This document shows, in pieces, positions 24,562 to 64,000 of a stretch of 64,000 bases of DNA. Both the position numbers and the translations under genes were made by a program. This stretch comes from Limisphaerales bacterium (GTDB lineage Bacteria > Verrucomicrobiota > Verrucomicrobiia > Limisphaerales > SXTU01). Numbering within the stretch: position 1 is the stretch's first letter; every line of letters begins with the position of its first letter. Under the pieces are notes generated by a model, which had not been told where the DNA came from, did not search any database, and saw nothing but the letters and a program-made list of their open reading frames with translations. Location: positions 138,805 to 202,804 of the forward strand of contig WRPG01000002.1 of the NCBI GenBank assembly GCA_009773355.1, written 5' to 3'.

Positions 24562-25446
24562 TCAACGCGAGTCGGTGGCGCGCATCCGCTCCAGACCCGC
24601 GCGCAGGTCCACGGGGGTAAAATCAGGAAACAGCCGGCGCAGCAACGAGGCATCGAAGGACCGGTAGCCGCCGTGGGGCATCGGCCCCTGACGCGGCGAA
24701 CCCGTCACCCTCACGCGCGGCTCGAACAGCGTCGCCGCCAGCTCCGCAACCGTGCGGAAGCTTGTGACGGTGCCGCTGATCGCGTTCACCACGCCGGTCG
24801 CGCGGTGCACCACACAGCGTCGGACAATCTCCGCCACGTCCTCGATGCAGATGTGATCGCGCTGCTCCTCGCCCTCGCCAAAGAGCACGATGTCCTTGCC
24901 CGAACGCGCCAGCCGCAGGAAGCGGTTCGGCCCGTAGCCGTTGTGCGGATCGCCCGGCCCGAAGATCAGCGTCGGCCGCACGATGGCCAGCGGGATGCCG
25001 GGCAGCTCGGACTTGAGCATGACTTCACGGGCAAGGTGCATCACGCCGTGCAGCGACCCCGGCTCGGCCGGCGAGGCCTCGGTCATCGGCGCGCGCGAGT
25101 CCGCATAGACCGCGTCCGAACTGACATAGACGAGATGTGCGACCGGCTGCGCCTTCACTGCCTCGATGGCCGCCTGCATCATGCGCAGGTTGTCCAGGAG
25201 CATCGCGGGGTTCTTCACCGGCGCGAGCGCGGAGGTGAGCACGAGCGTGGTGCTGCTGGTGAGCTGCGCGGCCAATCGCTGCGCGGCGTCAGACGCGAGC
25301 AGGTCCACTTCCTTGCGCGTGAGTGGCACGATTTCCACGCCATCGCGCCGCAGCCGCGCGAGCGTCGCGCGGCCGACAAAGCCGCCCGCGCCCATGATGA
25401 CGACCCGCGCAGGCGGCGTGCCCTGCAGTTGATTAAGCGTAAGCAT
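24562..25446 (-). CDS. NAD-dependent epimerase/dehydratase (SDR)
   Basis: GAGGFVG, SSDAVY, HGVMH in place of YxxxK, YGPNRF. Confidence 0.82.
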   Translation of the reverse strand: MLTLNQLQGTPPARVVIMGAGGFVGRATLARLRRDGVEIVPLTRKEVDLLASDAAQRLAAQLTSSTTLVLTSALAPVKNPAMLLDNLRMMQAAIEAVKAQPVAHLVYVSSDAVYADSRAPMTEASPAEPGSLHGVMHLAREVMLKSELPGIPLAIVRPTLIFGPGDPHNGYGPNRFLRLARSGKDIVLFGEGEEQRDHICIEDVAEIVRRCVVHRATGVVNAISGTVTSFRTVAELAATLFEPRVRVTGSPRQGPMPHGGYRSFDASLLRRLFPDFTPVDLRAGLERMRATDSR

Positions 25447-25518
25447 AAGCGGCACGCCCGTCTCCGACCCGGAGCGTTCCCATTCGAAGTCCGCAACCGG
25501 GCAGAACGCCAACCGCCC

Positions 25519-25625
25519 CGGAGCGCGACCCTCTGGGCCGCAGCGGCAGCCTGACAGAAAGAGCCGCGGACATTCCCACGTCATTCCCTGCTGCCAGCCG
25601 CTGCGGCCCAGAGGGCCGCGCTCCG
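25519..25625. repeat. GGAG-type REP doublet
   Basis: cggagcgcgaccctctgggccgcagcggc ... gccgctgcggcccagagggccgcgctccg, near-perfect 29-bp inverted repeat. Confidence 0.8.
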
Positions 25626-25686
25626 CAGCCAGTGCGCGGACGCACCCCGCGTCGCACACCTTCCGCTTCACGTTTTACGTTCCGCT

Positions 25687-26994
25687 TCATTTCATTCCCC
25701 CGCCCGCCCCCAGCCTTGGCGACGCGCCGAGCTGGTAGTAGTCAAATCCCAGCGCCGCCGCCTGCTCGCCGTCCAGCACCCCGAACGGGTCCAGCAGGAT
25801 GTTCCCCGGCATCGCCGCGCGGATGTCTGCCAAATTCAGCTTCCGAAACTCCGGCCACGGCGTGGGAATCACGAGCGCGTGCGCGCCGCGACAGGCATCC
25901 AGCGCGGTGTCGCATTGGCTGAACTGCGGATACGCGCCCGCCGGCAGCCGCACGACGGGGTCGTAGGCCTGCTTGCGGCATTCGGAGATGCCCGCGACGA
26001 ACTGGAGCGACGGCGAGTTCTTCGTCGAGTGCGTGTTCTCCTTGTAGGCGAGGCCCAGCACCGCGACGGTCGCGCGCGCGAGCGGGAGGGCGCGGCGTGC
26101 GCAGGCCTCGCGGAAAGTGCGGGCGGTCCAGTCCTTCCGGTGCGCGCTGTTGCGCTGCCACGCGTCCACGATGCCCGTGTCCGCCAGCGATCCTTCCGCG
26201 AGCCGCTTCACCGTGACAAGGTCGCGCTCCAGGTTGCCGCCGGCGATGCCGAGGCCGGGCGCGAGATACGCCTTCGGGCCGATGCGCGCGTCGAGGCGCA
26301 GGGCGGGGGCGATCTCCGCCCAGTCCGCGCCAATGTGTTCGCAAACCTCCGCGAGCGTGTTCGTGGTGGCCACGGAGGAGACGAGGAAGCAGTTGATGGC
26401 AATCTTCGCCAGCTCCGCGCTCTCATAGCGCATCGCGAGCACCGGGCAGCCGAAAGCCGCCAGCCAGCGCGCGTAGTCCGGCGGCAGCGGGGTGCGCGGG
26501 TCCGCGCAGCCGACGATGTGGCGCTCGGGCTGGAGCGCGCGCGCGATGGCGTTGCCGAAGACGAGCGTCTCGACCTGATAGTGCAACGCGCCGCCCAGGC
26601 GCGGGCCTTGCGCGGCCAGCGTGCGGGTGAAGCCGGGCGGCACCTGGCAGAGAATCACCGCCGTCGCGTCCGGCGCGAGCTGCGGAGCCGTGTGCGCGAG
26701 CAACTGTCGGAGCGGGCCGAGGTCGCTGCGGTTCGCCGCGTCGGTCGGCACGTCGAGCGAGTAGAAGACGACGCGGCACTTCGCCAGCGCGGCGGGGTCC
26801 GGCGTGAAGTTGAGCTTCGCCTTGTGCGCGGCGAAGAGGTCATCAAGCCCTGGTTCGGAAACGGGGAACTGTCCTTGCCCCAGCCGCTCGCACAGCGCGG
26901 CATCGCGATCAAACCCGACCACGTCAAACCCCTTCGCCGCCGTGGCGAGGCCATGGACGATGCCGAGATGCGAGAGGCCGACGAAGCCAATCAT
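25687..26994 (-). CDS. UDP-glucose/GDP-mannose dehydrogenase family protein (non-canonical)
   Basis: GLSHLG, SAELAKIAINCFL, DARIG, LGLAYKENTHSTKNSP; canonical catalytic Cys position reads GGNLERD. Confidence 0.85.
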   Translation of the reverse strand: MIGFVGLSHLGIVHGLATAAKGFDVVGFDRDAALCERLGQGQFPVSEPGLDDLFAAHKAKLNFTPDPAALAKCRVVFYSLDVPTDAANRSDLGPLRQLLAHTAPQLAPDATAVILCQVPPGFTRTLAAQGPRLGGALHYQVETLVFGNAIARALQPERHIVGCADPRTPLPPDYARWLAAFGCPVLAMRYESAELAKIAINCFLVSSVATTNTLAEVCEHIGADWAEIAPALRLDARIGPKAYLAPGLGIAGGNLERDLVTVKRLAEGSLADTGIVDAWQRNSAHRKDWTARTFREACARRALPLARATVAVLGLAYKENTHSTKNSPSLQFVAGISECRKQAYDPVVRLPAGAYPQFSQCDTALDACRGAHALVIPTPWPEFRKLNLADIRAAMPGNILLDPFGVLDGEQAAALGFDYYQLGASPRLGAGGGMK

Positions 26995-34268: not shown

Positions 34269-34790
34269 TCACTGGCCGAGGATAATCCGCACTGCCTCGG
34301 GTAAATTCCTGACGGTGAAGTCCGGCGCGTCGCGCAGCACCTCGGCATAGCCGTAATCCACGAAAATCGTCCGGCAACCGGCGGCCTTGCCCGCCGACAC
34401 ATCCCGCCAGCGGTCGCCGACCATGAACGACTCGGCGAGGGACAAGCCCAGTTCGCGCGCGGCGTTGGTGAGCAGGCCCGGCTTGGGCTTGCGGCAATCG
34501 CAAGCGTCGGCATCCACATGGCGGCAGACGCGGATGTCGTCCAGCGGCAGCTCGCGGCGCAGACGCTCGTGCATGGCGTCGAGCACGGCTCGGTCGAGCT
34601 TCCCCGTCGCCACGTCGGGCTGGTTCGTCACCACGACCAGCCGCCAGCCTGCGGACTTCAGCTCGCGCGTCGCCTCGATCACGCCGGGCAGCAACTCCAA
34701 ATCCTCCAGCCGGCGCGGGGCGAAAGGCTTGCCGTCGCGCGTCTCCGACCGCGTCAGCACGCCGTCGCGGTCGAGAAAGACGGCACGCAT
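34269..34790 (-). CDS. HAD-IIIA sugar-bisphosphate phosphatase (GmhB-like)
   Basis: FLDRDGV, VTNQ, CRH...CDCRKPKPG, MVGDRWRD. Confidence 0.88.
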   Translation of the reverse strand: MRAVFLDRDGVLTRSETRDGKPFAPRRLEDLELLPGVIEATRELKSAGWRLVVVTNQPDVATGKLDRAVLDAMHERLRRELPLDDIRVCRHVDADACDCRKPKPGLLTNAARELGLSLAESFMVGDRWRDVSAGKAAGCRTIFVDYGYAEVLRDAPDFTVRNLPEAVRIILGQ

Positions 34791-34813
34791 CACTCAGCGG
34801 GGGAAAGGGCGGA

Positions 34814-35046
34814 AACCACGAATGGACACGAAGGAACACGAACGCTGAAAACTCTGGAGGCTGCGCCTGCACCAGCGATGGTAGGGCGCGCTGTCCTCAG
34901 CGCGCCGCCGAAATCTTGTGGCGTGCGGGTCCTCGCGGCGGGGTGAGGACACCCCGCCCTACCATCGCCGGCCCCGGAGCGCGCTCCGGGAAAATGCACG
35001 GGCTGACTTCCTCCCCATTCGTGTCTCTTCGTGTCCATTCGTGGTT
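34814..35046. repeat. Composite element: CACGAA 10-mer inverted arms enclosing a GTAG-type REP doublet
   Basis: Outer arms 34814-34842 / 35018-35046 (27/29 complementary); inner gcgatggtagggcg...cgccctaccatcgc at 34875-34968. Confidence 0.82.
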
Positions 35047-53611: not shown

Positions 53612-55933
53612 ATGGCCCACATCACCGCAGGGAGTGGCAGGTTCCAGAAAGTCACCGCGCAGGTTGCGCGCAGGCTGTCGGGACTGGCTTTGTTCTTTGG
53701 CTTGAACCTCGGGCTGGGATTGCTGGCTCTCGCTGCCGAGCGCTTCGACGACATTTCCGTTTCCCCGCAGGTATTCTTCCAGGGCCAGACCTACCACGGT
53801 TACGTCGAGATGCGCTTCGCCGTCGAGAACCAGTCCACCGACCGCACCCGCAAGGTCACGCTCGCCACGCCGCACCAGGCCCACGGCTGGGGCAACAACC
53901 TCCGCCGCGTCGAGCGCACCGTCACCGTCAGCCCCGGCGCGACGGTGAATGTCACGCTCTGGCAGCCGCCGCTGATGCTGAACGGCGACAACCAGGTGGA
54001 TGTCATCGTGGACGGGCGTTTTCGCGGGGCCATCCCGCGCGGCGGGAATAACCAGCACATGCAACGGCACGCGCACTCCGGCATTCCCAGCGGCCCGCGC
54101 GCGGTGCTGGTGAGCCGCAGTTTGAACAGCGACGACCTCGACAAGGCCTTTCGCGGCGGAGTGGTGGCGAAGGGGCCGAGCGGCCATTTCTCCGCCGACC
54201 AGGCCACCGGCGCGCCCAACGTCTCTGCCCGCTCCGCCGGGATGCAGGCGTGGGCGTGGACACCCGACAACTTCGGGCGTGGCGGCCCGGAATGGCTGGA
54301 GCTGGACTACAAGCCCGCGCGCACGGGCGCAAAGTTCCTCCGCATCCACAAGCTGGGCTGGGATCAGGCTTTCAAGTCCGTCGTGCTCAAGGCTGAGGAC
54401 GGCACCGAACTCGCCACGGTCATGGTGACGAATCATGTGAACCGCACGATTTCCCTCAACGTGCTGCAAGTGGCGCTGCCGACGCTGACCAACGCGATTG
54501 CCACCATCCGCCTGAATGTCAACGCCTCCGGCGCGGGCAACCAGGTGGGCGTGGATGCGGTGGAGTTGTCCGACGGCTCGACGTCCAGCTTCGCGGCGGA
54601 CGCCCGCGCCAGCAGCACCTGGGCGACGCGCATGTCGCACTCGTCGTCCTCCACGACCTATCAAGGGCCGACTGTGCTGCGCAGCGAACTGGAAGCGACC
54701 GGCTGGAGCGAGGCATGGCTGGCGTTCACGGCCTTCGACCTCGTGGTGCTGTCGCGTGGCGACCTCGCGGCGATGAACGCAGCGCAGCAGAACGCGTTGC
54801 GCAGCTACGTGGAGGCGGGCGGTGGACTGGCGGTGCTGGGCCTGACGGAGTTGCCGAAGGCTTGGGCAAGCGGGGCGTCGCAAAAGGTGGCCGACACCCG
54901 AAACTCAACCCTCGCCCGCTCTTACCTGGGCTTTGGCCAGGTTCTGTTGCTTGGTGCTGGCAACATTGTCGGATTGGAGCGGCTTCAGGTGGATGCGCTG
55001 CGCGAGCTTGCCCGCGAGTGCGGCCAGGTCTGGCAGTCCATGCCCACCGAGGGCAACGCGAACACCGAGTTCCCCGTCATCGAGGACGCGCGCATCCCCG
55101 TGCGCGGCATCGTGTTCATCATGCTGGCGTTCATCCTCGTGGTCGGGCCGGTCAACATCTTCTTCTGCGCCCGCGCCAACAATCGCATCGCGATGCTCTG
55201 GACCATCCCGCTGATTTCCTTCGTCACCTGCGCCGTCGTGTTTGGTTACTCGCTGATGAGCGAGGGCATCACGCCCACCACGCGCACGGAGGCGCTGACC
55301 ATTCTCGACCAGGTGTCGCACCGCGCCACCACGCTCGCGCGGCAGGCGTTTTACACGCCGCTCACGCCCGGCGACGGCCTCCGCTACAGCCACGACACCG
55401 AGGTCACGCCGCTCGTGGACGTGAACCGCTACAACGGCGGCAACTCGCGCGAGCTGGAGCTGTCGCAAGCGCAGCACCTCGTGCGCGGCTGGATTACGGC
55501 GCGCGTGCCGGCGCACTTCGCGCTGCGCAAGTCCGAGACGCGCCGCGAGCGCATCACGGTGCAGAAGCTGCCGGACGGCCGCGTCACCGTGGTCAACGGC
55601 TTGGGTGCGGACGTCCAGACGCTGTGGCTGCGCGATGACAAGGGGCGCTTGTTCAAGGGCGAGGCGTTGAAGGCGGGGCAGAATGTGGCGCTGGGAGCGC
55701 CTGAACAAGTTAGTGAGAGAAGCACCACCGTTGATTTGGCGAGCGTGTATCAAGGCTCGTGGGCAGGCGCGCATGATGCGTTTGTGTTGTCGCCCGCGAG
55801 CCATCTGCGCCCCAACACCTACCTCGCCGTGCTCGCCGAAGCCCCTTTCATCGAAACCGGCCTCGCCAAGCCCGGCAAGGCCCGCGCCCGCCAGACCATC
55901 ATCGGCGTGCTCGCCCCGGAGGATGTGAAATGA
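53612..55933 (+). CDS. Large membrane-anchored hypothetical protein of the ABC/VWA operon
   Basis: N-terminal hydrophobic segment, GATase-like YVEAGGGL, TM pair ILVVGPVN...WTIPLIS. Confidence 0.8.
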   Translation: MAHITAGSGRFQKVTAQVARRLSGLALFFGLNLGLGLLALAAERFDDISVSPQVFFQGQTYHGYVEMRFAVENQSTDRTRKVTLATPHQAHGWGNNLRRVERTVTVSPGATVNVTLWQPPLMLNGDNQVDVIVDGRFRGAIPRGGNNQHMQRHAHSGIPSGPRAVLVSRSLNSDDLDKAFRGGVVAKGPSGHFSADQATGAPNVSARSAGMQAWAWTPDNFGRGGPEWLELDYKPARTGAKFLRIHKLGWDQAFKSVVLKAEDGTELATVMVTNHVNRTISLNVLQVALPTLTNAIATIRLNVNASGAGNQVGVDAVELSDGSTSSFAADARASSTWATRMSHSSSSTTYQGPTVLRSELEATGWSEAWLAFTAFDLVVLSRGDLAAMNAAQQNALRSYVEAGGGLAVLGLTELPKAWASGASQKVADTRNSTLARSYLGFGQVLLLGAGNIVGLERLQVDALRELARECGQVWQSMPTEGNANTEFPVIEDARIPVRGIVFIMLAFILVVGPVNIFFCARANNRIAMLWTIPLISFVTCAVVFGYSLMSEGITPTTRTEALTILDQVSHRATTLARQAFYTPLTPGDGLRYSHDTEVTPLVDVNRYNGGNSRELELSQAQHLVRGWITARVPAHFALRKSETRRERITVQKLPDGRVTVVNGLGADVQTLWLRDDKGRLFKGEALKAGQNVALGAPEQVSERSTTVDLASVYQGSWAGAHDAFVLSPASHLRPNTYLAVLAEAPFIETGLAKPGKARARQTIIGVLAPEDVK

Positions 55934-56208
55934 AGCTCGCAATGCCCAACCCAGTTTGTGTGCCGGGTGCGTCTTGGACTGCGCTGGCAGAGCGCAGCGG
56001 CGACAGCGCTTTGGCTTCCCGCGAAGCGGAGGCCTCGGAGTTTAATTTCGTGCGCCGGCAGGAAACCGCTCTGCGGGACCGGAAAGCGGCGTCGCGCTCC
56101 GCTTGCCGCCGCAGTCCAAGAGGCGCTCGTTGCTCCGATGCGGTTTGGAGCTTGGCGCTTGGAGCTTCTTTGGAGCTTGGAACTTGGGATTTGGAGGGCG
56201 CGTCATGA
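55930..56208 (+). other. Repeat-derived junction ORF (92 aa) over a REP doublet (55972-56121) and TTGGARC heptamers (56143-56195)
   Basis: ATGA overlap with the upstream stop and ATGA overlap with the downstream start. Confidence 0.6.
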
Positions 56209-57134
56209 AAGTTCAAGTCCGCGGCCTTCACAAACGCTTCGGCAAGACCGTGGCGGTGGACAACTTCACATTCTCCTTCGACAACGGCCATGTCTTTGGC
56301 TTCGTCGGGCCGAACGGCGCGGGCAAGACCACGACGATGCGTGTCATCGCGACGCTGGAGGAGCCGACCGAGGGCGATGTGCTCATCAACGGCATCTCCG
56401 TCCGCGAGGAGCCGGAGTATGCCCGCCGCAGCGTCGGCTACGTGCCCGACTCGCTGCCCGCGCACAACGACGTGACCGTCCACGAGTATCTGGACTTTTA
56501 CGCGCGGGCCTACGGCTTGCAGGGCGCGAAGCGGCGCGAGGCGGTCGGCGCGGTCGAGGAGTTCACGGGCGTCACGGGCATCCTCGACAAGCATCTCAAG
56601 GCGCTCTCCAAGGGCATGAAGCAGCGCGTCACGCTGGGCCGTGCGCTCATCCACAACCCCGATGTGCTCATCCTCGACGAGCCTGCCGCCGGCCTCGACC
56701 CGCGCGCGCGTGTCGAGTTGCGCGAGCTGCTGGCCGTGCTCGCCACGCAGAACAAGGCCATCCTCATCAGCTCGCACATCCTCACGGAGCTGACCGAGAT
56801 TTGTAACGGCGTGGTCATCGTCGAGCGCGGCAAGCTGTTGGAGTCCGGCACCGTGGCGGACGTGCTCAAGAAGTCCACGCCGCACCGCGCCTTCGCCATC
56901 CGCGTGCTGGGCGAGGCGTCCGCGCTCGTGAAGGAACTGCTGCAAACGCCCCATGTCATCAATGCCCGCGAAGTTGGTGGCGAGGTGTTGTTGGAATTGG
57001 AGGGCGAAGAATCCGCCGGCTGCGAGTTGCTCTCGGCTCTCGTCGGCAAGGGCTTCAAGGTCGCCGAGTTCAAGCAGAGCAAGGCGAACCTGGAGGACAT
57101 CTTCATGAACGTGACGAAGGGAGGGGTGCAATGA
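56205..57134 (+). CDS. ABC transporter ATP-binding protein
   Basis: GPNGAGKTT, LSKGMKQR, ILDEP, SSHIL. Confidence 0.95.
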   Translation: MKVQVRGLHKRFGKTVAVDNFTFSFDNGHVFGFVGPNGAGKTTTMRVIATLEEPTEGDVLINGISVREEPEYARRSVGYVPDSLPAHNDVTVHEYLDFYARAYGLQGAKRREAVGAVEEFTGVTGILDKHLKALSKGMKQRVTLGRALIHNPDVLILDEPAAGLDPRARVELRELLAVLATQNKAILISSHILTELTEICNGVVIVERGKLLESGTVADVLKKSTPHRAFAIRVLGEASALVKELLQTPHVINAREVGGEVLLELEGEESAGCELLSALVGKGFKVAEFKQSKANLEDIFMNVTKGGVQ

Positions 57135-57262
57135 GCGCGAAGCGAAACGGAGTGGTGGAGTGTTGGAGTGCTGGAGTGCTGACCCAAAACGCACCGGCAT
57201 CGTCCGCGCAGTTCCACCACTCCATTACTCCATCACTCCACCACTCCGCTGTCCCCCGATGA
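57131..57262 (+). other. Repeat-derived junction ORF (43 aa) over octamer inverted arrays (GGAGTGNT / CACTCCAY, 57149-57247)
   Basis: MSAKRNGVVECWSAGVL...HHSITPSLHHSAVPR*; ATGA overlaps at both ends. Confidence 0.6.
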
Positions 57263-58824
57263 ACTTCCCCACCCCTTCCAACTGGCGCACCTGGGAACCC
57301 AATCCCATCGTTGTGAAGGAGCTTCGGCAGGCCGTGCGGAGCTGGGCGGTCACGGGAATGCTGATGGTGTTCCTCGCCGTCTTGTTCTTCGTCACTGTTG
57401 GCTTCCTGCTGGGACAGAGCTTTCACATCAGTCCGAACCAGGCGCTGGGCCGGGACATTTTCCAGTTCTTCCTGCCAGTGTTGAGCCTCGTCGGCTTCGT
57501 GTTCATCCCGGTCTATGTCGGCGGACGGCTCACGGCGGAGCGGCTGGAGGGCAACGTGGACATGCTCTACATCACCACGCTCTCGGCGGCGCGCATCATC
57601 CGGGGCAAGCTGCTCTGCGGCATCTATCTCACCGTGTTGTTCTTCAGCGTGTGCGCGCCGTTCATGGTGTTCACGAATCTGCTGCGCGGCATTGACCTGC
57701 CGACGGTGTTCGTGCTGCTGGTCATCGCGTTCCTGCTGTCCATCCTGTCGTTGCAGGCGGCGATTTTCCTGTCCTGCCTGCCCGCGAGCAAAGGGCTGAA
57801 ACTCCTCGTCGGCCTGCCGGCGGGCGGGTTCATGATGAGCCTGGTCGGCATGATGACCGCGATGGCGCATGAACTCATGCGCGAGGGCGTCGGCAGCCGG
57901 CTGGGGACGTGGAACTTCTGGGGGCCGGCGTTGAGCCTGTTGTTCATTGGCCTGCTGCTGTTTGGCTTCCTGCATCTGGCGGCCATCGCGCTGATTTCGC
58001 CGCCGTCGGCCAACCGCGCGCTGCCGTTGCGCGGCTATGTGACGGGGGCGTGGCTGCTCACGGTGGTCGTCGCGGTGATTTGGGCCGTGACCGAGGCCAG
58101 CCCGTGGCCCGTGCTTGCCTGGTCGTCGTTCACGACTGGCGTGCTCGTTCTCGCGCTGCTGATTTCCGCAGCGGAGGGCGATGACCAAAGCGTTCGCATC
58201 CGACGCACCATCCCTGAGTTTGGGCCAAAGCGAGGGCTGGCGTTCTTCTTATACAGCAGCACTGCGGGCGGGCTGGCGTGGACCGTCGTGCTCGCTGCTG
58301 CCACGATGGTGTTCACCTGGCTGGTGTTGGATGGTGGACTCTTTGACTGGCTGCTGGCGCTTTGGCGGGCGGGCGGCACCACCTCCGGGCGGATTAGTCA
58401 CGGCGACTTGGACAATTTCACTCGCTTCCTTTCCACTATTTTCCTCTATGCCCTCGCCTACGTGCTGCTCGGCCTGTTCATCTATCGCCGCTTTCAGCCT
58501 CATCGTCCGCCCATCTTTGCCGCGATGACCGCCGTCGCGCTGCCCGCGCTCTGGGCCATCGTGCCGAACCTCGTGCTGTTCTTCCTCAACAAGCTCTCAT
58601 GGGATGCGTTGCAGGAGCGACAGCTTGGCAACATCTTCAACGTCTTCGCGATGAAGGACCGCAGCTTCATCGTGGACCACCAGCTTTGCGCGCTGGCGCT
58701 GGTGACCATCGGCGTCGTGCTGAACCTGAGATGGTTCCTCGCCCAACGCGCCGCCTTCCAACCGCTGCGGCGCGAAACTCTGCCCGTCGTCCCGCCGCCC
58801 AGCCATGACCGTGCGCCCGTTTAA
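57259..58824 (+). CDS. ABC-2 type permease-like membrane protein
   Basis: NPIVVKELRQAVR, ER..GNVDMLYITTLS..RIIRGKL, many TM helices. Confidence 0.85.
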   Translation: MNFPTPSNWRTWEPNPIVVKELRQAVRSWAVTGMLMVFLAVLFFVTVGFLLGQSFHISPNQALGRDIFQFFLPVLSLVGFVFIPVYVGGRLTAERLEGNVDMLYITTLSAARIIRGKLLCGIYLTVLFFSVCAPFMVFTNLLRGIDLPTVFVLLVIAFLLSILSLQAAIFLSCLPASKGLKLLVGLPAGGFMMSLVGMMTAMAHELMREGVGSRLGTWNFWGPALSLLFIGLLLFGFLHLAAIALISPPSANRALPLRGYVTGAWLLTVVVAVIWAVTEASPWPVLAWSSFTTGVLVLALLISAAEGDDQSVRIRRTIPEFGPKRGLAFFLYSSTAGGLAWTVVLAAATMVFTWLVLDGGLFDWLLALWRAGGTTSGRISHGDLDNFTRFLSTIFLYALAYVLLGLFIYRRFQPHRPPIFAAMTAVALPALWAIVPNLVLFFLNKLSWDALQERQLGNIFNVFAMKDRSFIVDHQLCALALVTIGVVLNLRWFLAQRAAFQPLRRETLPVVPPPSHDRAPV

Positions 58825-59020
58825 CGCCAGGCCGCAAAGGCGCAGAGACGCGTCCTCATCCGCCGCCGGAGCGCAGGTGTCCAACCTGCGTGGTCGGAAC
58901 GGCAAAGAACACGCAGGTTGGACACTTGCGCTCCTTCCAAGGTTGGAAGTTGAGCGTTGGACGTTGAGCGTTTCCCCCGCCCGCTTTCCCGCTTTCCCAC
59001 TTTCCCACCTGCTCCGTTAG
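58805..59020 (+). other. Repeat-derived junction ORF (71 aa) over a REP doublet (58868-58934), GTTGRRC heptamers and CTTTCCCR octamers
   Basis: Starts within the last 20 nt of the permease gene; its stop ends 2 nt before the DUF58 ATG. Confidence 0.55.
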
Positions 59021-59022
59021 CC

Positions 59023-59883
59023 ATGTCCCATCGCGAGCATCTCCTCTCCGGCGAAGCGCTCGGCCAGCGTTACGCGCTCGCGGTGCCGCAGACCGCGCTG
59101 GCGGGCATGACCGGCAGCCAGCTCGGCCGCCGCGCGGGCACTTCGATTGATTTTCAGGACTACCGCGAATATCAGCCCGGCGACGACCTCCGCACGATTG
59201 ACTGGAACGTCTTCGCCCGCACCGACCGGCTCACCATCAAACTCTTCCGCGAAGAGGTGAACCCGCACCTCGACCTCGTCCTCGACGCCTCACGTTCGAT
59301 GGCCTTGGAGAACACGCCGAAGTCCGCCGCCACGCTCCGCCTCGCCGCGCTGCTCGGCACGGCGGCGGAGAACGGCCATTGCACGCACGCCACCTGGCTC
59401 GCCGGCGATGGCTTCCAACGCGCCGCCAACGACACGATGCTCCCCTCCGCGTGGGACGGCCTCGCCTTCACCAGCCGCCGCCCGCTTGATGAAGCCTTCA
59501 CCATCCTCCCGCCGCGCCTGCGCCGCCTCGGCATCCGCGTGCTCATCAGCGACCTCATGTGGCCCGTTGAGCCGCTCTCCATCCTGCGCCGCCTCGCGGA
59601 CGGAGCCGCCGCCGTCTTCGTCGTGCAGCTACTCGCCCAAGCCGACACCGAGCCGCCTGAGCACGGCAACATCCAGCTCGTGGACAGCGAGACTGGCGAG
59701 GAGCGCGAAATCTTCGTGGACGCCACCGTCGCCGCCCAATTCCGCGACGCCCTCGCCCGCCACCGCGAAAGCTGGGACGCCGCCTGCCGCCAAACCGGCG
59801 CGCGCTTCGTCTCCCTCGTGGCGGAGAAGCTCGACGCCTCTCTGCCCGCACTGGAAGAGGCGCAGCTTTTGGTTCCGGCCTGA
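59023..59883 (+). CDS. DUF58 domain protein
   Basis: GTSIDFQDYREYQPGDDLRTIDWN, LDASRSM, LISD. Confidence 0.92.
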   Translation: MSHREHLLSGEALGQRYALAVPQTALAGMTGSQLGRRAGTSIDFQDYREYQPGDDLRTIDWNVFARTDRLTIKLFREEVNPHLDLVLDASRSMALENTPKSAATLRLAALLGTAAENGHCTHATWLAGDGFQRAANDTMLPSAWDGLAFTSRRPLDEAFTILPPRLRRLGIRVLISDLMWPVEPLSILRRLADGAAAVFVVQLLAQADTEPPEHGNIQLVDSETGEEREIFVDATVAAQFRDALARHRESWDAACRQTGARFVSLVAEKLDASLPALEEAQLLVPA

Positions 59884-59899
59884 ACACGTTGGTGCTGCG

Positions 59900-60037
59900 A
59901 TGAAAGCTCCAAATACCAAGTTCCAAATCCCAAAGAAGCTCCAAACTCCAAACCCCAAAGCGTCCGCTCTCGGCAGACTGGTTGATGCTTGGAACTTGGA
60001 ACTTGGAGCTTGGGATTTGCCCACATGCCCTTCCTGA
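59900..60037 (+). other. Repeat-derived junction ORF (45 aa) over TCCAA/TTGGA heptamer inverted arrays (59902-60019)
   Basis: ATG 16 nt after the DUF58 stop; stop overlaps the next start by 13 nt. Confidence 0.55.
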
Positions 60038-61803
60038 CTTACCCGCTCGCGCTCCTGGCCGCCGCCGCGCTTCCCGCGCTGGCTGCCATCTACATCCTGC
60101 GCAACCGCTACCGGCGGCGCGAGGTGTCGAGCCTGATGCTCTGGGAGTTCGCCGTCCTCTCGCGCGAGGGCGGTGCGAAGGTCAACAAGCTCCAGCTCCC
60201 GCTCGTCTTCTTTCTCGAACTCATCGCGCTCGCGCTGCTCGTCACCGCCGCCACCGGCCCGCGCTGGCAGTTGCCAGCCCACGCCCGTCCGCTCGTCGTC
60301 ATCCTCGACGATTCCGCCTCGATGCTCGCGAGCGATGGTGCGGCGTCGAACACTCTTCCAGCTAATTCACCGCGCACGAAGGCCGCCGCCGCCCTTGACG
60401 ACCTCCTCAAATCCCGCAAGTTCCTCTCCATCCGCCTCGTCCTCGCCGGGCCGAAGCCCCGCGTCCTCGGCAGCGCCGTCACCACCGCGCCGGAAGTCCG
60501 CGAGCTGCTCGCGCAATGGACCTGTCAGTCGCCTGACTCCGCCCTCGACGCCGCTGTTGCGCTCGCCAACGACCTCGGCGGCCCGCAGTCGCAGTTGCTC
60601 GTGCTCACCGACCACGCCTCGCCTGGCAGCGAGTTCACCGGCAACCGCATCCAGTGGTGGGCCTTCGGAGCGACGCAGCCGAACCTCGCCTTCGTCAACG
60701 CCACCCGCACCACGCACGGCGAGGCCGACCGCGTGCTGCTCGAAGTCGCGAACTACTCCGCCAGCGCCAGCGCCAGCGCCGCCTACCGCATCACGAGCGG
60801 CAGCAACTTGCTCCGCAGCGCCACGCTGACCTTGGAGCCACGCGCCCGCCAACGCCTCATCCTGAATCTGCCGGCCAGCACGCCAGCAATAGAAGCCACG
60901 CTTGCCACCGACGCCCTCGCCGCCGACAACCGCATCACGCTCCTGCCCGCCGTGCGCAAGCGCATCCGTGTGCAGAACTCGCTCGAAGACGCCACGCTCC
61001 GCTCGCTTGTGGACAAGGCGCTTGATTCCACCGGTCTTCGCAGCTCCCTCTTCGCCGCGCCGGAACTCATCCTGCACAACGCGCGCGCCACGCCTGCCGG
61101 CACGAACGCGTGGGGCCTCCGCCTCCTCACCCACACGAACAACCTCGCCGCGCACACCGGCCCGTTCATCGTGGACACCGCGCATCCGCTGGCGCGTGGC
61201 CTCGCGCTCGACGGCGTCGTGTGGACTGCGGGCGCGCCGGGCACGAACCAGTTCGGCCTGCCCATCGTGACCGCCGGCAACACGCCGCTGCTCTCCGCGA
61301 CCGAGGACGCGCTCGGTCGCCAGCAAATCACGCTGCACCTCGTCCCCGACCGCTCGACGCTTTCCGCCACGCCGAACTGGCCGATTCTCTTTTGGAACCT
61401 GCTCACCTGGCGCGCGCGCGAAACGCCCGGCCTGGTGGAAAGCAACTTCCGCCTCGGCTCCGAAGTGGCGGTGCGGGCGCTGACCAACTCCGCGCAACTC
61501 ACTTTGCCCAGCGGCGCGACCCGCGTGCTCACGAAGACCGCCGAGGAATTCGTGCTCGAACCGGAAACCTCCGGCCTGCACACCGTCACGGCGGGCGTGA
61601 GCAAATGGCAATTCGCCGTGAACCTCCTCGCCCCCGAGGAGTCCGACCTCGCCAACGCGAAGACCGGCAAATGGGGCGAGTGGGAGCGCCCCGAGGAGAC
61701 ACGCCGCGAATACTCCAGCGTGCTCTGGCTCTTCGTCCTCGGCGCACTGGTGGTGATGGTCACGCACCTCTTCCTCGTGACCCACAGCAAAGGCCGCGTA
61801 TGA
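60025..61803 (+). CDS. BatA-like N-terminal and VWA domain membrane protein
   Basis: IYILRNRYRRREVSSLMLW, ILDDSASM (MIDAS), VLTD, C-terminal TM. Confidence 0.85.
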   Translation: MPFLTYPLALLAAAALPALAAIYILRNRYRRREVSSLMLWEFAVLSREGGAKVNKLQLPLVFFLELIALALLVTAATGPRWQLPAHARPLVVILDDSASMLASDGAASNTLPANSPRTKAAAALDDLLKSRKFLSIRLVLAGPKPRVLGSAVTTAPEVRELLAQWTCQSPDSALDAAVALANDLGGPQSQLLVLTDHASPGSEFTGNRIQWWAFGATQPNLAFVNATRTTHGEADRVLLEVANYSASASASAAYRITSGSNLLRSATLTLEPRARQRLILNLPASTPAIEATLATDALAADNRITLLPAVRKRIRVQNSLEDATLRSLVDKALDSTGLRSSLFAAPELILHNARATPAGTNAWGLRLLTHTNNLAAHTGPFIVDTAHPLARGLALDGVVWTAGAPGTNQFGLPIVTAGNTPLLSATEDALGRQQITLHLVPDRSTLSATPNWPILFWNLLTWRARETPGLVESNFRLGSEVAVRALTNSAQLTLPSGATRVLTKTAEEFVLEPETSGLHTVTAGVSKWQFAVNLLAPEESDLANAKTGKWGEWERPEETRREYSSVLWLFVLGALVVMVTHLFLVTHSKGRV

Positions 61804-62186
61804 AAAGCTCCAAGTTCCAAATTCCAAATTCCAAAGAAGCTCCAAGCTCCAAGCTCCAACTTGTCGGGCTGAAGGTGACCGGTGTGTTGGCGATGCCTGT
61901 GGAATTCCCGGGCCGTTCTCCCTCACCCCAGCCCTCTCCCGCTGAGAGAGGGAGCGACAGCGTTCGCGTCCGTTGCAAGGGAAGCGGGATGACAGACCGA
62001 GCGCGGCCGAGCTTTCTCCCTCTCCCGGCGGGAGAGGGCAAGGGTGAGGGAGAAAGCGTTCGTTTTCATCAGACCGTTAGGAGCTACAGCAGCTCCGCCA
62101 GTTCGTTTATTTGTGCCGCCGGCATGGCAGGACGCGTCGAACTTGGGATTTCTTTGGAACTTGGAGCTTGGGATTTGGAGCTTTGA
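61800..62186 (+). other. Repeat-derived junction ORF (128 aa) over heptamer arms enclosing a CCCTCACCC-type REP doublet (61916-62054)
   Basis: ATGA overlap with the upstream stop; stop ends 2 nt before ATG 62189. Confidence 0.55.
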
Positions 62187-62188
62187 CG

Positions 62189-64000
62189 ATGTTCATCCTC
62201 TCCCAACCCGTCTGGCTCGCGCTGCTCATTCCGCTGGGCATCCTGTGGGCGTTCTGGCCGATGCCCACGCGGCTGCTGCGCGTGTTGCGCGCCGTGACGC
62301 TCGTCGCGCTCGTGCTCGCAATGGCCCAACCCTCCATCAAGCTCCCTGACCGCGCTGGAACGGTCGTCGTGGTCGCGGACCGCAGCGACTCCATGCCCGC
62401 CGGCGCCAGCGCGCAGGCGAAGGAAGCCGTGGATTTGATTCAGCGCGGCATGGGCGCGCGCGACCAACTCGCCGTCATCAGCTTCGGCCAGCAAACCGCT
62501 GTCGAGCGACCGCCGCAGGGCGGGGAATTCCCCGGCTTCACCGCGCAAGTCGGTGCGGACGCTTCCAATCTTGCCGACGCCCTCGACTCCGCACTCGCGC
62601 TCATTCCGCCGGATGCTCCAGGGCGCATTCTCATTGTCTCCGACGGCAAGTGGACTGGGCGTGACCCGCTCGCCGCCGCCGCGCGCGCCGCCGGTCGCGG
62701 CATCGCGATGGACCACCGCCTCCTCGCGCGCCCCGGCGTCAACGACCTCGCCATCGCCTCGCTCCACACGCCGGAGACCGTGTTGCCCGGTCAGGCTTAC
62801 ATCATGACCGCGTGGTTGCAGTCGCCGGTGGAGCAAACCATCGAGTATCAACTCACGCGCGGCACCACGGTCATCGCGGCGGGCAAGAAGGAAGTTCCCG
62901 CCGGCCGTTCGCGCCTGCTCTTCCGCGACCGCGCCACGACGCCCGGCACCACGCAGTATCAACTCACGCTCAAATCCGCCGCCGCTGACCCCGTGCCCGA
63001 AAACAACTCTGCCCGTGCGCTCGTCGGCGTGCGCGGCCCCAAGCCCATACTCGTCCTCTCACCCACGGCCGACTCCGCCTACGCGCAGCTTCTCCGCAAA
63101 GGTCGCGTGGACCTCGATGCGCGCACGCCTGCCGAGACGCGGTGGACGCTGGAGGAACTCTCGCGCTACTCCGCCGTCGTGCTGGAGAACGTCATGGCCG
63201 CCCAAGTCGGAAGTGCCGGCATGGAGACGCTCGCGGCGTGGGTCGAGACAACCGGCAGCGGCCTGATGATTACCGGCGGGCGCAAGTCCTACGGGCCGGG
63301 CGGCTACTTCGGGTCGCCGCTCGACCGCATTCTCCCGGTCTCGATGGAGATGCGGAAGGAGCACCGCAAGATGCAACTGGCCATCGTCGTCGCGCTCGAC
63401 CGCTCCGGCTCAATGTCCGCGCCGGCGGGCGGCGGGAAGAAGAAAATTGACCTTGCCAACATCGGCACCGTGCAGGTGCTCGACCTGCTCGGCCCGACTG
63501 ACGAATTGGGCGTCATCGCCGTTGACTCGCGGCCACACACGATGGTGGACCTCGCGCCCGTGGACGTGGTGCGCGGCCAGCGCGAGCGCATTCTGAGCAT
63601 TGAGAGCATGGGTGGCGGCATCTTCATCTACGAGGCGCTGGCCGCCGCGTCGCAGATGGTGATGAAGGCGAAGGCGGAGACGAAGCACATCATCCTCTTT
63701 GCCGACGCCGCCGACTCCGAGGAGCCGGGACAATACCGGGCCTTGCTAGAGAAAACCCGCGAGGCGGGCATCACCGTCAGCGTCATCGGCATGGGCACGG
63801 AGGCCGACGTGGATGCGAACCTGCTCAAAGATGTCGCAGCGCTCGGCGGCGGGCAGGTCTACTTCAGCAACTCGCCCGAGGAGTTCCCGCGCATCTTCGC
63901 GCAGGACACTTTTACCGTCGCGCGCAGCACGTTCATCGAGGACAGCACGCCGCTGAAAGTCACTGGCGGCTTCAGCACGCTTGGCGGGCAGGGCGACTGG
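62189..64000 (+). CDS. VWA domain membrane protein, 3'-truncated by window edge
   Basis: Own translation (absent from the ORF track): MFILSQPVWLALL..., VADRSDSM and ALDRSGSMS MIDAS motifs, GGRKSYGPGGY. Confidence 0.88.
   Translation, partial: MFILSQPVWLALLIPLGILWAFWPMPTRLLRVLRAVTLVALVLAMAQPSIKLPDRAGTVVVVADRSDSMPAGASAQAKEAVDLIQRGMGARDQLAVISFGQQTAVERPPQGGEFPGFTAQVGADASNLADALDSALALIPPDAPGRILIVSDGKWTGRDPLAAAARAAGRGIAMDHRLLARPGVNDLAIASLHTPETVLPGQAYIMTAWLQSPVEQTIEYQLTRGTTVIAAGKKEVPAGRSRLLFRDRATTPGTTQYQLTLKSAAADPVPENNSARALVGVRGPKPILVLSPTADSAYAQLLRKGRVDLDARTPAETRWTLEELSRYSAVVLENVMAAQVGSAGMETLAAWVETTGSGLMITGGRKSYGPGGYFGSPLDRILPVSMEMRKEHRKMQLAIVVALDRSGSMSAPAGGGKKKIDLANIGTVQVLDLLGPTDELGVIAVDSRPHTMVDLAPVDVVRGQRERILSIESMGGGIFIYEALAAASQMVMKAKAETKHIILFADAADSEEPGQYRALLEKTREAGITVSVIGMGTEADVDANLLKDVAALGGGQVYFSNSPEEFPRIFAQDTFTVARSTFIEDSTPLKVTGGFSTLGGQGDW

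What the first reader, a model, noticed from the sequence alone, without database searches (positions are those of the whole stretch)
55930..62188. Five of five operon junctions are filled by different repeats, each spanned by a doubly coupled relay ORF
Seen: 55930-56208 (ATGA/ATGA overlaps), 57131-57262 (ATGA/ATGA), 58805-59020 (20-nt overlap / 2-nt gap), 59900-60037 (16-nt gap / 13-nt overlap) and 61800-62186 (ATGA / 2-nt gap). The peptides are unrelated low-complexity repeat translations. The starts at 57259, 59023 and 62189 lack an obvious SD. Similar cases occur at 25433, 34790 and 37072. Open frames are common at this GC content, but both ends coinciding with the flanking stop and start at every junction is hard to attribute to chance (not computed). 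Inference: selfish repeats or emptied cargo cassettes occupy stop/start overlaps and stay harmless because ribosomes are relayed across them. I know of no description of this as a system, and it could be a source of de novo peptides.
Basis: partly seen in the sequence, partly recalled or inferred. Interest (0 to 1): 0.85.

Follow-up and report, generated by a model that had tools for sequence, protein, structure and literature searches.

The report
Relay ORFs across repeat-filled operon junctions
In this uncultured verrucomicrobial genome, hairpin repeats wedged between formerly overlapping operon genes are spanned by short reading frames that begin at the upstream stop and end at the downstream start, apparently to hand ribosomes across, much as described for mycobacterial MIRU repeats.

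Summary
All five short ORFs exist at the stated coordinates. Each starts at or near the upstream gene's stop and ends at or near the downstream start.

This is more than chance:
- Genome-wide, in repeat-bearing same-strand gaps flanked by ATGA on both sides, gap length mod 3 is 10/35/7 in favour of the relay phase.
- A frame opened by the ATG of the upstream ATGA ends at the next gene's start in 45 of 108 cases. For non-start codons at the same position it is 27 of 306.
- Relatives often have direct 4-nt overlaps at junctions 1 and 2. All 16 relatives with inserts there keep an exact RTGA...ATGA frame. The inserts range from 85 to 361 nt, and at junction 2 they come from at least five unrelated hairpin families.

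Junctions 3-5 are weaker: 9 of 19 insert-bearing orthologous junctions have a relay ORF.

Best reading: selfish hairpin repeats survive in translationally coupled junctions only if a throw-away ORF carries ribosomes across. Translation itself is not shown.

The idea is not new. MIRUs in mycobacteria are described the same way. This is a new variant, with palindromic repeats of many families in Verrucomicrobiota. Three of the five junctions share one repeat family, so "different repeats" is only partly right.

The parts
53612..55933 (+). Gene 1 of the operon (773 aa from the first ATG; my caller starts it at 53690). No Pfam family. Ends ...GGAGGATGTGAAATGA.
   Evidence: SD-like GGAGGA before the terminal ATGA
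55930..56208 (+). Relay ORF 1 (92 aa). Its ATG overlaps the gene 1 stop (ATGA) and its TGA overlaps the ABC gene start (ATGA).
   Evidence: Four relatives with inserts here keep a GTGA...ATGA frame; 10 of 15 have a direct overlap.
55934..56204 (.). Junction 1 insert (271 nt). Long hairpin (arms 55964-55989 / 56104-56129) followed by a lone YTTGGAG arm (56141-56196).
   Evidence: MFE -146 kcal/mol, z -5.1; BLAST hits to 102 other gaps
56205..57134 (+). ABC transporter ATPase (309 aa). Ends ...GGGAGGGGTGCAATGA.
   Evidence: PF00005, E 3e-29
57131..57262 (+). Relay ORF 2 (43 aa), ATGA at both ends.
   Evidence: All 12 of 12 insert-bearing relatives keep an RTGA...ATGA frame.
57148..57248 (.). Hairpin with (GGAGTGNT)n / (CACTCC)n arms: 34-nt arms, 88% complementary, 33-nt loop.
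   Evidence: MFE -65, z -4.7. The only Rfam hit is a sub-threshold chance miRNA match.
57259..58824 (+). 521-aa membrane protein (putative ABC permease partner, no Pfam family). The start has no SD.
   Evidence: N-terminus conserved from residue 1 in relatives
58805..59020 (+). Relay ORF 3 (71 aa). 20-nt overlap with the upstream gene; its stop lies 2 nt before the DUF58 start.
   Evidence: Only 4 of 8 short-insert relatives have a comparable ORF.
58868..58934 (.). 28-nt-arm hairpin (93% complementary). It is followed by GTTGGA/GTTGAGCG repeats and CTTTCCC repeats up to 59010.
   Evidence: MFE -94, z -3.0
59023..59883 (+). DUF58 protein (286 aa)
   Evidence: PF01882, E 2e-28
59900..60037 (+). 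Relay ORF 4 (45 aa). Its ATG lies 16 nt after the DUF58 stop and its TGA lies 13 nt inside the next gene. It is the tail of the open frame 59408-60037.
   Evidence: 4 of 7 insert-bearing relatives have a comparable ORF
59903..60019 (.). CTCCAAR...YTTGGAG hairpin element
   Evidence: MFE -55, z -3.6
60025..61803 (+). BatA-N / VWA protein (592 aa)
   Evidence: PF07584, PF13519
61800..62186 (+). Relay ORF 5 (128 aa). ATGA at the upstream stop; its TGA lies 2 nt before the next start. It is the tail of the open frame 61110-62186.
   Evidence: only 1 of 4 insert-bearing relatives has a comparable ORF
61804..62184 (.). CTCCAAR...YTTGGAG hairpin (51-nt arms) with a nested second hairpin at 61916-62054 (39-nt arms, 90% complementary)
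   Evidence: MFE -206, z -8.7
62189..64000 (+). VWA-domain protein. It runs off the window (953 aa in the contig).

Best explanation
The six genes (unknown 773-aa protein, ABC ATPase, membrane partner, DUF58, BatA/VWA, VWA) form one operon. In the ancestor, neighbouring genes overlapped by 4 nt (RTGA) or abutted, so downstream genes were translated by termination-reinitiation.

Hairpin repeats with tandem-repeat arms have inserted exactly at these junctions. There are many such families in this genome and they usually sit just after stop codons. At junctions 1 and 2 the RTGA is found on both sides of the insert. The left copy keeps the upstream stop, the old start codon and its Shine-Dalgarno sequence. 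The right copy supplies the downstream gene's ATG.

Inserts persist mainly when the old start codon opens a stop-free frame that runs through the hairpin. That frame either ends on the downstream start (TGA inside ATGA) or continues in frame into the downstream gene. Ribosomes leaving the upstream gene would reinitiate on this throw-away ORF, translate through and melt the hairpin, terminate at the next start and reinitiate there. The peptide itself is irrelevant.

Shown: the anatomy, the genome-wide phase and end bias, the ancestral overlaps, and recurrent in-phase inserts in relatives. Inferred: that the ORFs are translated, and that selection acts through reinitiation rather than only through protection from Rho-dependent polarity.
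For: 1. Anatomy.

2. Genome-wide phase. For same-strand gaps of 100-600 nt with ATGA at both ends, gap mod 3 is 12/47/10. The control classes are flat: 150/144/150 and 232/227/224. In repeat-bearing gaps of 60-600 nt it is 10/35/7 (p 1.2e-6), and 29 of the 35 are open.

3. Position-matched control, repeat-bearing gaps of 100-600 nt. Frames starting at the ATG of the upstream ATGA end at the downstream start in 45 of 108 cases. Non-start codons at that position do so in 27 of 306 (odds ratio 7.4, p 4e-13). GTGA gives 34 of 189. Nearby ATGs give 65 of 250 against 2508 of 21122. On the antisense strand, mirrored ORFs number 32 of 1305 against 129 of 1305 on the sense strand.

4. ATGA gene ends are 63 of 1258 at convergent ends, but 10-15% before same-strand gaps of 31 nt or more.

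5. A core SD 4-mer precedes 15 of 34 relay ATGs. That resembles direct overlaps (115 of 360). Only 5 of 34 of the downstream starts have one.

6. Relatives, junction 1: 10 of 15 have a direct ATGA overlap, and the 4 inserts (175-361 nt) are all bridged exactly. Junction 2: 4 of 16 overlap directly, and all 12 inserts (85-346 nt, at least 5 unrelated hairpin families) are bridged exactly. A genome of another family has 4-nt overlaps at 4 of the 5 junctions.

7. Four further relay junctions elsewhere in the genome. In set A, 7 of 8 insert-bearing relatives' loci have gap = 1 mod 3. In set B, 5 of 12 do, and 3 more are bridged with a 7-nt spacer. In sets C and D, every relative in which the upstream gene was found next to the downstream one has a direct overlap or a 2-3 nt gap, apart from one set-D locus (L135) with a 223-nt insert. 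In total, 28 of 36 loci from other genomes are in phase against 12 expected (the loci are not independent).

8. Relay ORFs do not look protein-coding. Their per-codon score is -0.28, against +0.35 for called genes. The 65 strict cases fall into 20 BLAST components.

9. When the old ATG is in frame with the downstream gene (gap = 2 mod 3: 42 of 80 repeat-bearing gaps with ATGA only at the upstream end), the frame is mostly open into that gene.

10. The junction hairpins are very stable. The junctions contain no terminator-like or promoter-like sites.
Against: - There are no RNA, ribosome-profiling or proteomic data, so translation is inferred.
- Junctions 3-5 are bridged in only 9 of 19 insert-bearing orthologous junctions. 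The base rate for any-start relays is roughly 20%.
- In set B only 5 of 12 loci have the strict phase.
- 564 of 658 repeat-bearing gaps have no ATG relay ORF.
- With the ends fixed, interiors stay open in 6-54% of shuffles.
- Gene calls and starts come from my own crude caller. Homology confirms the starts only at the junctions examined.
- The predicted pairing of the downstream start region is not higher at strict relays (0.58 against 0.54, p 0.23), so the 'hairpin occludes the start' step is unsupported.
- Hexamer or octamer arm units could preserve frame by slippage at some sites.
- Relatives are phylogenetically non-independent.
Confidence: 0.7

Rival explanations
1. Chance. In a 66% GC genome with stop-free low-complexity repeats, open frames across gaps are common. 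A flexible definition of 'coupled' then finds one at every junction, with no biological role.
For: With the ends fixed, shuffled interiors keep the ORF in 22%, 54%, 49%, 33% and 6% of trials. ORFs 4 and 5 are tails of long alternative frames. The CTCCAAR arms contain no stop triplet in any frame. Junctions 3-5 are bridged in only 9 of 19 orthologous cases.
Against: The mod-3 bias is 10/35/7 with flat controls. The position-matched comparison is 45 of 108 against 27 of 306. The sense/antisense asymmetry is 129 against 32. At junctions 1 and 2, 16 of 16 orthologous inserts are bridged exactly.
Confidence: 0.1
2. The phase bias is a by-product of the insertion mechanism. Elements of fixed length plus a 4-nt target duplication, or slippage in 6-nt units, would give it without any selection on translation.
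For: RTGA flanks both sides of the inserts at junctions 1 and 2. Exactly 124 nt recurs in several families. Some arms have 6-8 nt units.
Against: The in-phase inserts span 82-364 nt and fall into 20 sequence components. Nested second insertions (325, 346 and 361 nt) also stay in phase. Arms with 7-nt units would not preserve frame by slippage. Gaps without an ATGA at the upstream end show no phase bias: 81/84/85 and 130/124/115.
Confidence: 0.08
3. The ORFs are translated, but the benefit is protection of the operon mRNA from Rho-dependent termination or decay across a long untranslated structured gap. Reinitiation at the downstream start is not the benefit.
For: Any translation across a 100-400 nt gap would shield the transcript. 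Some relay ORFs end 7-13 nt from the start rather than on it. In-frame read-in to the downstream gene is also enriched.
Against: The dominant configuration is the exact TGA-in-ATGA overlap: 40 of 129 loose relays, far above any other offset. Anti-polarity alone does not require that. The downstream starts rarely have an SD (5 of 34).
Confidence: 0.15
4. The relay ORFs encode functional small proteins.
For: They are open, start with ATG, and some have an SD.
Against: Completely unrelated sequences occupy the same junction in sister species. Codon scores are non-coding-like, -0.28 against +0.35. The peptides are translations of hairpin arms.
Confidence: 0.03

Closest known systems
Mycobacterial interspersed repetitive units (MIRUs; Supply et al. 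1997, known to me through the passage read in review PMC12548453)
   Same: Dispersed repeats sit in intra-operon junctions. An ORF inside the repeat is coupled to the flanking gene at -4 nt spacing. This is interpreted as letting a mobile repeat insert with minimal effect on downstream expression.
   Different: MIRUs are 40-100 bp direct tandem units (VNTRs) of a few classes in Mycobacterium; this description is recalled, not tested here. The elements here are single hairpin (inverted-repeat) elements of many unrelated families, in Verrucomicrobiota. Different families occupy the same junction in sister species. There is also a genome-wide phase statistic, and a second outcome in which the frame reads into the downstream gene.
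REP/BIME elements and their RAYT transposases (GTAG/CGTC-tagged REPs; PMC3733652, passages read)
   Same: Both are high-copy palindromic extragenic repeats. Both lie preferentially just after stop codons, between same-strand and convergent genes. Some overlap ORF ends. This genome also has a RAYT-like gene flanked by GTAG-tagged REPs.
   Different: The junction elements here have long arms (23-56 nt) built of 6-8 nt tandem units. I saw no GTAG heads on them when reading. No link to a transposase was established. REPs have not, to my knowledge, been described as carrying doubly coupled ORFs (searches found none).
Rickettsia palindromic elements (RPEs) inserted in frame in protein genes (recalled: Ogata et al. 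2000; mentioned in PMC3733652)
   Same: Palindromic selfish repeats are tolerated because they are translated in frame. This is comparable to the class here in which the old ATG reads through the repeat into the downstream gene.
   Different: RPEs sit inside coding sequences and become part of the protein. The main class here forms a separate ORF between two genes.
Translational coupling by termination-reinitiation, and engineered 'bicistronic design' leader ORFs (review PMC12548453)
   Same: A short ORF whose only role is to deliver a ribosome to an overlapping downstream start and to remove the effect of RNA structure.
   Different: Here it arises naturally, many times, as the survivable form of a repeat insertion.

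Membership tests
MIRU-type coupled intergenic repeat | Repeat dispersed in intergenic regions between co-transcribed genes | tested here: met
   Repeats occur in 810 of 2096 same-strand gaps. Of 123 CTCCAAR arms, 96 lie in same-strand gaps, 1 in a convergent gap and 3 in divergent gaps.
MIRU-type coupled intergenic repeat | ORF within the repeat, in the same direction as the flanking genes, overlapping the upstream stop and downstream start (-4 spacing) | tested here: met
   Junctions 1 and 2 in the window. There are 65 strict RTGA...xTGA cases genome-wide.
MIRU-type coupled intergenic repeat | Unit is a 40-100 bp direct tandem repeat (VNTR); sequence related to mycobacterial MIRU classes (feature recalled) | tested here: not met
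   The elements are inverted repeats (hairpins), one per site. Sequence relatedness to MIRUs was not tested because no MIRU sequence was at hand.
REP / RAYT system | Short palindromes with a conserved GTAG or CGTC head, associated with a Y1 (HUH) RAYT gene | tested here: inconclusive
   A RAYT-like gene flanked by GTAG REPs exists at contig C27:209748-210536. It belongs to a different family from the junction hairpins. I saw no GTAG heads on those when reading, and ran no formal scan.
MITE (transposase-mobilised miniature element) | Terminal inverted repeats plus target-site duplication | tested here: inconclusive
   RTGA is present on both sides of the inserts at junctions 1 and 2, where relatives have a single RTGA. 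This could be a 4-nt duplication, or simply the only survivable outcome. No parent IS was identified.
Termination-reinitiation translational coupling | Stop of the upstream ORF overlaps or lies within a few nt of the downstream start | tested here: met
   Offsets are (-4,+3), (-4,+3), (-20,-3), (+16,+12) and (-4,-3).
Termination-reinitiation translational coupling | Downstream translation depends on translation of the upstream ORF | not testable with these tools
   No RNA holder was listed. This needs reporters or ribosome profiling.
Rfam RNA families (riboswitch, leader and so on) | Match at or above the gathering score | tested here: not met
   The only hit is mir-H1 at 30 bits against a gathering score of 97.

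The most novel reading that the evidence does not exclude
A clade-wide class of junction-homing hairpin elements in Limisphaerales-type Verrucomicrobiota specifically colonises RTGA stop/start overlaps with a 4-nt duplication. At the same junction the elements are repeatedly exchanged or precisely lost between species. They persist by carrying a content-free 'relay' ORF. This would create a standing pool of dozens of translated, fast-evolving random peptides per genome, a natural nursery for de novo genes. It might also act as a tunable valve on operon stoichiometry.
Probability: 0.3. Interest if true: 0.8.

Novelty: new variant of a known kind. Interest (0 to 1): 0.62.

Why it matters
This would be an unusually clean case of selection on 'being translated' with no selection on what is translated. 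It is visible purely from comparative genomics: the phase is kept across unrelated inserts of 85-361 nt at one site.

It extends the MIRU idea from one actinobacterial genus to palindromic repeats of many families in another phylum. That suggests a general rule for how selfish repeats can live inside tightly coupled operons.

Practical consequences:
- Gene callers will report these ORFs as hypothetical proteins, or mis-extend downstream genes.
- Operon predictors that rely on short gaps will split such operons.

It also offers a testable natural source of translated random sequence for studies of de novo gene birth.

Tried and rejected
- Expression: no RNA holder was listed.
- Contigs of four DNA runs from other studies were laid on the stretch. 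One contig of X4 (56307-58961) spans junction 2 and one of X9 (56697-59945) spans junctions 2 and 3, both with no gaps. The other junctions broke the short-read contigs. The listed joints look like cross-matches to other copies of the repeats. This gave no population-level indel test.
- Rfam: nothing at or above threshold.
- Promoter and terminator scan: no promoter-like site; 4 terminator-like sites, all inside genes and fewer than in the shuffles.
- I tested the idea that the hairpin specifically occludes the downstream start. Predicted pairing of positions -20..+3 is 0.58 at strict relays, against 0.54 in other repeat gaps and 0.54 in non-repeat gaps (p 0.23 and 0.07). This was rejected as unsupported. 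Only overall stability is higher (-0.464 against -0.355 kcal/mol per nt).
- I tested whether the ATG is an intrinsic part of the CTCCAAR element. It is not: only 43 of 123 arms have an ATG within 14 nt upstream. On the sense strand of same-strand gaps it is 27 of 50, against 13 of 46 on the antisense strand.
- A FastTree of ABC ATPase plus permease proteins, meant to count independent insertions at junction 2, did not sort the repeat families into clades. Insert-free genomes came out nested among insert-bearing ones. No support values were computed, so I draw no conclusion.
- Literature searches for a description in Verrucomicrobia, or of palindromic repeats with doubly coupled ORFs, found none. 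The search library lacks most subscription journals. Supply et al. 1997 was not read, only its citation in the review. No supplementary files were consulted.
- A possible 21-nt lattice of preferred insert lengths (103, 124, 145, 187 and so on) was noticed post hoc and not tested.
- Not used: structure prediction, complex prediction, protein-database searches on the relay peptides.
- The fold z-scores use mononucleotide shuffles, not dinucleotide shuffles.

Full report
**What is there.**
The window is part of contig C51 of a 6.16-Mb, 162-contig assembly with 65.9% GC. Third codon positions are 87% G+C and only 5.4% A. Relatives' record titles label the lineage Verrucomicrobiota / Limisphaerales / Pedosphaera; several titles are obviously mislabelled.

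Positions 53.6-65 kb carry six same-strand genes:
- an unknown 773-aa protein
- an ABC ATPase (PF00005)
- a 521-aa membrane protein
- a DUF58 protein
- a BatA-N/VWA protein
- a VWA protein

A simple codon-usage gene caller that I wrote called 4715 genes with 86.6% coding density.

**The observation.**
All five short ORFs exist as described. Two are exact ATGA/ATGA bridges: 55930-56208 and 57131-57262. The others are looser:
- 58805-59020: 20-nt overlap upstream, 2-nt gap downstream
- 59900-60037: 16-nt gap upstream, 13-nt overlap downstream
- 61800-62186: ATGA upstream, 2-nt gap downstream

ORFs 4 and 5 are the ends of longer alternative frames.

The gaps are filled by very stable hairpins, with MFE of -55 to -206 kcal/mol and z of -3 to -8.7 against mononucleotide shuffles. 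They have no Rfam match. No terminator-like or promoter-like site lies in the junctions.

Contrary to the title, junctions 1, 4 and 5 share one family: CTCCAAR/YTTGGAG arms of 52-56 nt with 84-88% complementarity. Junction 2 has (GGAGTGNT)n arms. Junction 3 has another hairpin plus two short tandem motifs. The start at 62189 does have a GGAG, with 8 nt between it and the ATG. Of the three 'similar cases', two are relay-like (25690->25433 and 35038->34790, minus strand) and the one at 37072 is not.

**Is it more than chance?**
Openness alone is weak evidence. With the ends fixed and the interior dinucleotide-shuffled, the ORF survives in 22%, 54%, 49%, 33% and 6% of 2000 shuffles (product 0.0012).

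The decisive evidence is phase. Among same-strand gaps of 100-600 nt (n = 1305), 69 have ATGA at both the upstream stop and the downstream start. Their gap length mod 3 is 12/47/10, favouring the one phase in which the upstream ATG reads onto the TGA inside the downstream ATGA. Gaps with ATGA only downstream (150/144/150) or at neither end (232/227/224) are flat.

I defined a repeat-bearing gap as one with BLAST hits to at least 3 other gaps. For such gaps of 60-600 nt the split is 10/35/7 (p 1.2e-6), and 29 of the 35 are open.

A position-matched control gives the same answer. In repeat-bearing gaps of 100-600 nt:
- A frame opened by the ATG of the upstream ATGA ends within -5..+13 nt of the downstream start in 45 of 108 cases.
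- For non-start codons at that position it is 27 of 306 (odds ratio 7.4, p 4e-13).
- GTGA gives 34 of 189.
- Other nearby ATGs give 65 of 250, against 2508 of 21122.

Mirrored ORFs on the antisense strand are four times rarer, 32 against 129 of 1305. Loose ATG relays occur in 94 of 658 repeat-bearing gaps and in 31 of 574 repeat-free gaps. The run of five here is the longest in the genome; the next has three.

**Why ATGA?**
Genes at convergent ends finish in ATGA in 63 of 1258 cases (5%). Genes followed by a same-strand gap of 31 nt or more do so in 10-15%. There are 360 direct 4-nt overlaps in the genome, 268 of them ATGA.

A core Shine-Dalgarno 4-mer precedes 15 of 34 strict relay ATGs. That resembles direct overlaps (115 of 360) and is unlike ordinary upstream gene ends (13-17%). 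Only 5 of 34 of the true downstream starts have one. Ordinary downstream starts have one in about 10% of cases, so this organism uses SD sparingly. In the window, GGAGGA and GGGAGGGG sit just before the relay ATGs of junctions 1 and 2. The relay start therefore looks like the old start site of the downstream gene.

**Relatives.**
I fetched the orthologous operon from 16 genomes.
- A genome of another family (L035) has 4-nt overlaps at junctions 1, 2, 4 and 5.
- Junction 1: 10 of 15 loci have the direct ATGA overlap. Four carry inserts of 250, 175, 361 and 274 nt, all equal to 1 mod 3, each with an open GTGA...ATGA frame. One distant locus has an 82-nt gap with no such ORF.
- Junction 2: 4 of 16 loci overlap directly. 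All 12 inserts (85, 94, 106, 112, 112, 124 four times, 130, 325, 346 nt) equal 1 mod 3 and are bridged exactly.

At junction 2 the inserts belong to at least five unrelated hairpin families, with arm motifs GGAGTG, CTAATCC, CCAATG, AATTGCG and GGGAAT, plus one unclear insert. The 325- and 346-nt inserts contain nested second elements. The downstream protein begins with the same residues whether or not an insert is present, and RTGA flanks the insert on both sides.

Junctions 3-5 are less convincing. Relay ORFs by the loose any-start definition occur in 4 of 8, 4 of 7 and 1 of 4 insert-bearing loci. In four relatives junction 3 instead holds two real, tightly overlapped genes, one prepilin-like of about 300 aa and one of about 237 aa.

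**Replication at other junctions.**
I repeated the comparison at four other strict relay junctions of this genome.
- Set A: one relative has a direct overlap, and 7 of 8 insert-bearing relatives are in phase.
- Set B: two have direct overlaps and 5 of 12 are in phase. Three more are bridged by an ORF from the upstream ATGA that stops 7 nt before the start.
- Sets C and D: every relative in which the upstream gene was found next to the downstream one has a direct overlap or a 2-3 nt gap, apart from one set-D locus (L135) with a 223-nt insert.

Excluding this genome's own copies, 28 of 36 insert-bearing loci are in the relay phase, against 12 expected. The binomial p of 6e-8 is overstated because relatives are not independent.

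**Nature of the ORFs and repeats.**
The 65 strict RTGA...xTGA relays in repeat-bearing gaps fall into 20 BLAST-linked components. Their mean per-codon coding score is -0.28, against +0.35 for called genes. They are translations of hairpin arms, not conserved proteins.

Repeats are frequent: they occupy 810 of 2096 same-strand gaps, 222 of 420 convergent gaps and 122 of 547 divergent gaps. They begin a median of 5-7 nt after stop codons. The CTCCAAR family is almost confined to same-strand gaps, with 96 of 123 arms there, 1 in a convergent gap and 3 in divergent gaps. Its ATG is contextual, not part of the element.

When the old ATG falls in frame with the downstream gene (gap = 2 mod 3: 42 of 80 repeat-bearing gaps with ATGA only at the upstream end; p 0.001), the frame is usually open into that gene. 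The repeat then becomes an N-terminal extension.

**Mechanism proposed.**
Shown: the repeats occupy what were stop/start overlaps, and a frame from the old start to the new start is preserved regardless of insert sequence and length.

Inferred: ribosomes terminating the upstream gene reinitiate at the old start, translate through the hairpin, terminate on the downstream start and reinitiate there. Inserts lacking such a frame are lost from coupled junctions.

The sub-idea that the hairpin specifically buries the downstream start is not supported. A role in preventing Rho-dependent polarity cannot be excluded. However, the dominance of the exact TGA-in-ATGA end (40 of 129 loose relays) favours reinitiation.

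**Comparison with what is known.**
[quoted passage not shown] It cites Supply et al. 1997 (passage read; the 1997 paper was not read). The concept is therefore known.

This case differs in four ways:
- The elements are hairpins, not tandem direct units.
- Many families are involved.
- The phylum is different.
- Different families occupy the same site in sister species.

REP/RAYT biology is the other neighbour (passages read). The genome has a RAYT-like gene flanked by GTAG REPs, but I could not link it to the junction hairpins. Searches for a description in Verrucomicrobia, or of doubly coupled ORFs in palindromic repeats, found none.

**Verdict.**
It is a new variant of a known kind. Translation remains to be demonstrated.

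Noticed in passing
G000 contig C27:209560-210660 (outside the window): A 262-aa Y1/HUH transposase-like gene (PF01797 match, HVH motif). It is flanked on both sides by GTAG-headed short palindromes that hit 60-80 other gaps, a classical REP/RAYT arrangement. Its downstream junction is itself a strict ATGA/ATGA relay of 109 nt.
   Followed up: partly
L024, L028, L029, L031 (relatives), between the permease and DUF58 orthologs: Junction 3 holds about 1.58 kb with two real genes joined by RTGA overlaps: a prepilin-type N-terminal protein of about 300 aa and a protein of about 237 aa. They are absent from this genome and from the other eight relatives compared at this junction, so gene content at this junction also varies.
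   Followed up: partly
window 25433-25690 (-) and 34790-35038 (-): Two further relay-like ORFs over repeats. The first (85 aa) starts at the upstream ATGA and stops about 13 nt inside a likely ATG start near 25446; my caller had chosen TTG at 25512. The second (82 aa) starts about 20 nt after the upstream stop and ends in a TGATG overlap at 34790.
   Followed up: partly
genome-wide and junction 2 orthologs: Exactly 124 nt recurs as the insert length in unrelated families. There are five strict relays of 124 nt in this genome. At junction 2, 124 nt is seen for the GGAGTG, CCAATG and GGGAAT families in different species. Lengths 103, 124, 145, 187, 250, 271 and 292 lie on a 21-nt lattice. This is a post hoc observation and is unexplained.
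   Followed up: no
tree of L021-L036 plus the window: Repeat families at junction 2 do not follow the ABC ATPase plus permease protein tree. Insert-free genomes nest among insert-bearing ones. This hints at exchange, replacement or precise loss of inserts, or simply at an unresolved tree.
   Followed up: partly
genome-wide: Shine-Dalgarno use is low. About 10% of downstream starts in gaps have a core AGGA/GGAG/GAGG 4-mer, against 32% at 4-nt overlaps. ATGA is the commonest start context (1963 of 4715 genes).
   Followed up: partly
window 55964-56129 and many other gaps: One high-copy hairpin family translates as '...LDCGG.RSATPL...SGVAAALCHRSPR'-like peptides. With several other families (MNTD.HG/IRVHPCPSVV, AACCV/TRNTQHA, MPNA/IGHWSL) it would be reported as families of 'hypothetical proteins' by automatic annotation.
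   Followed up: no
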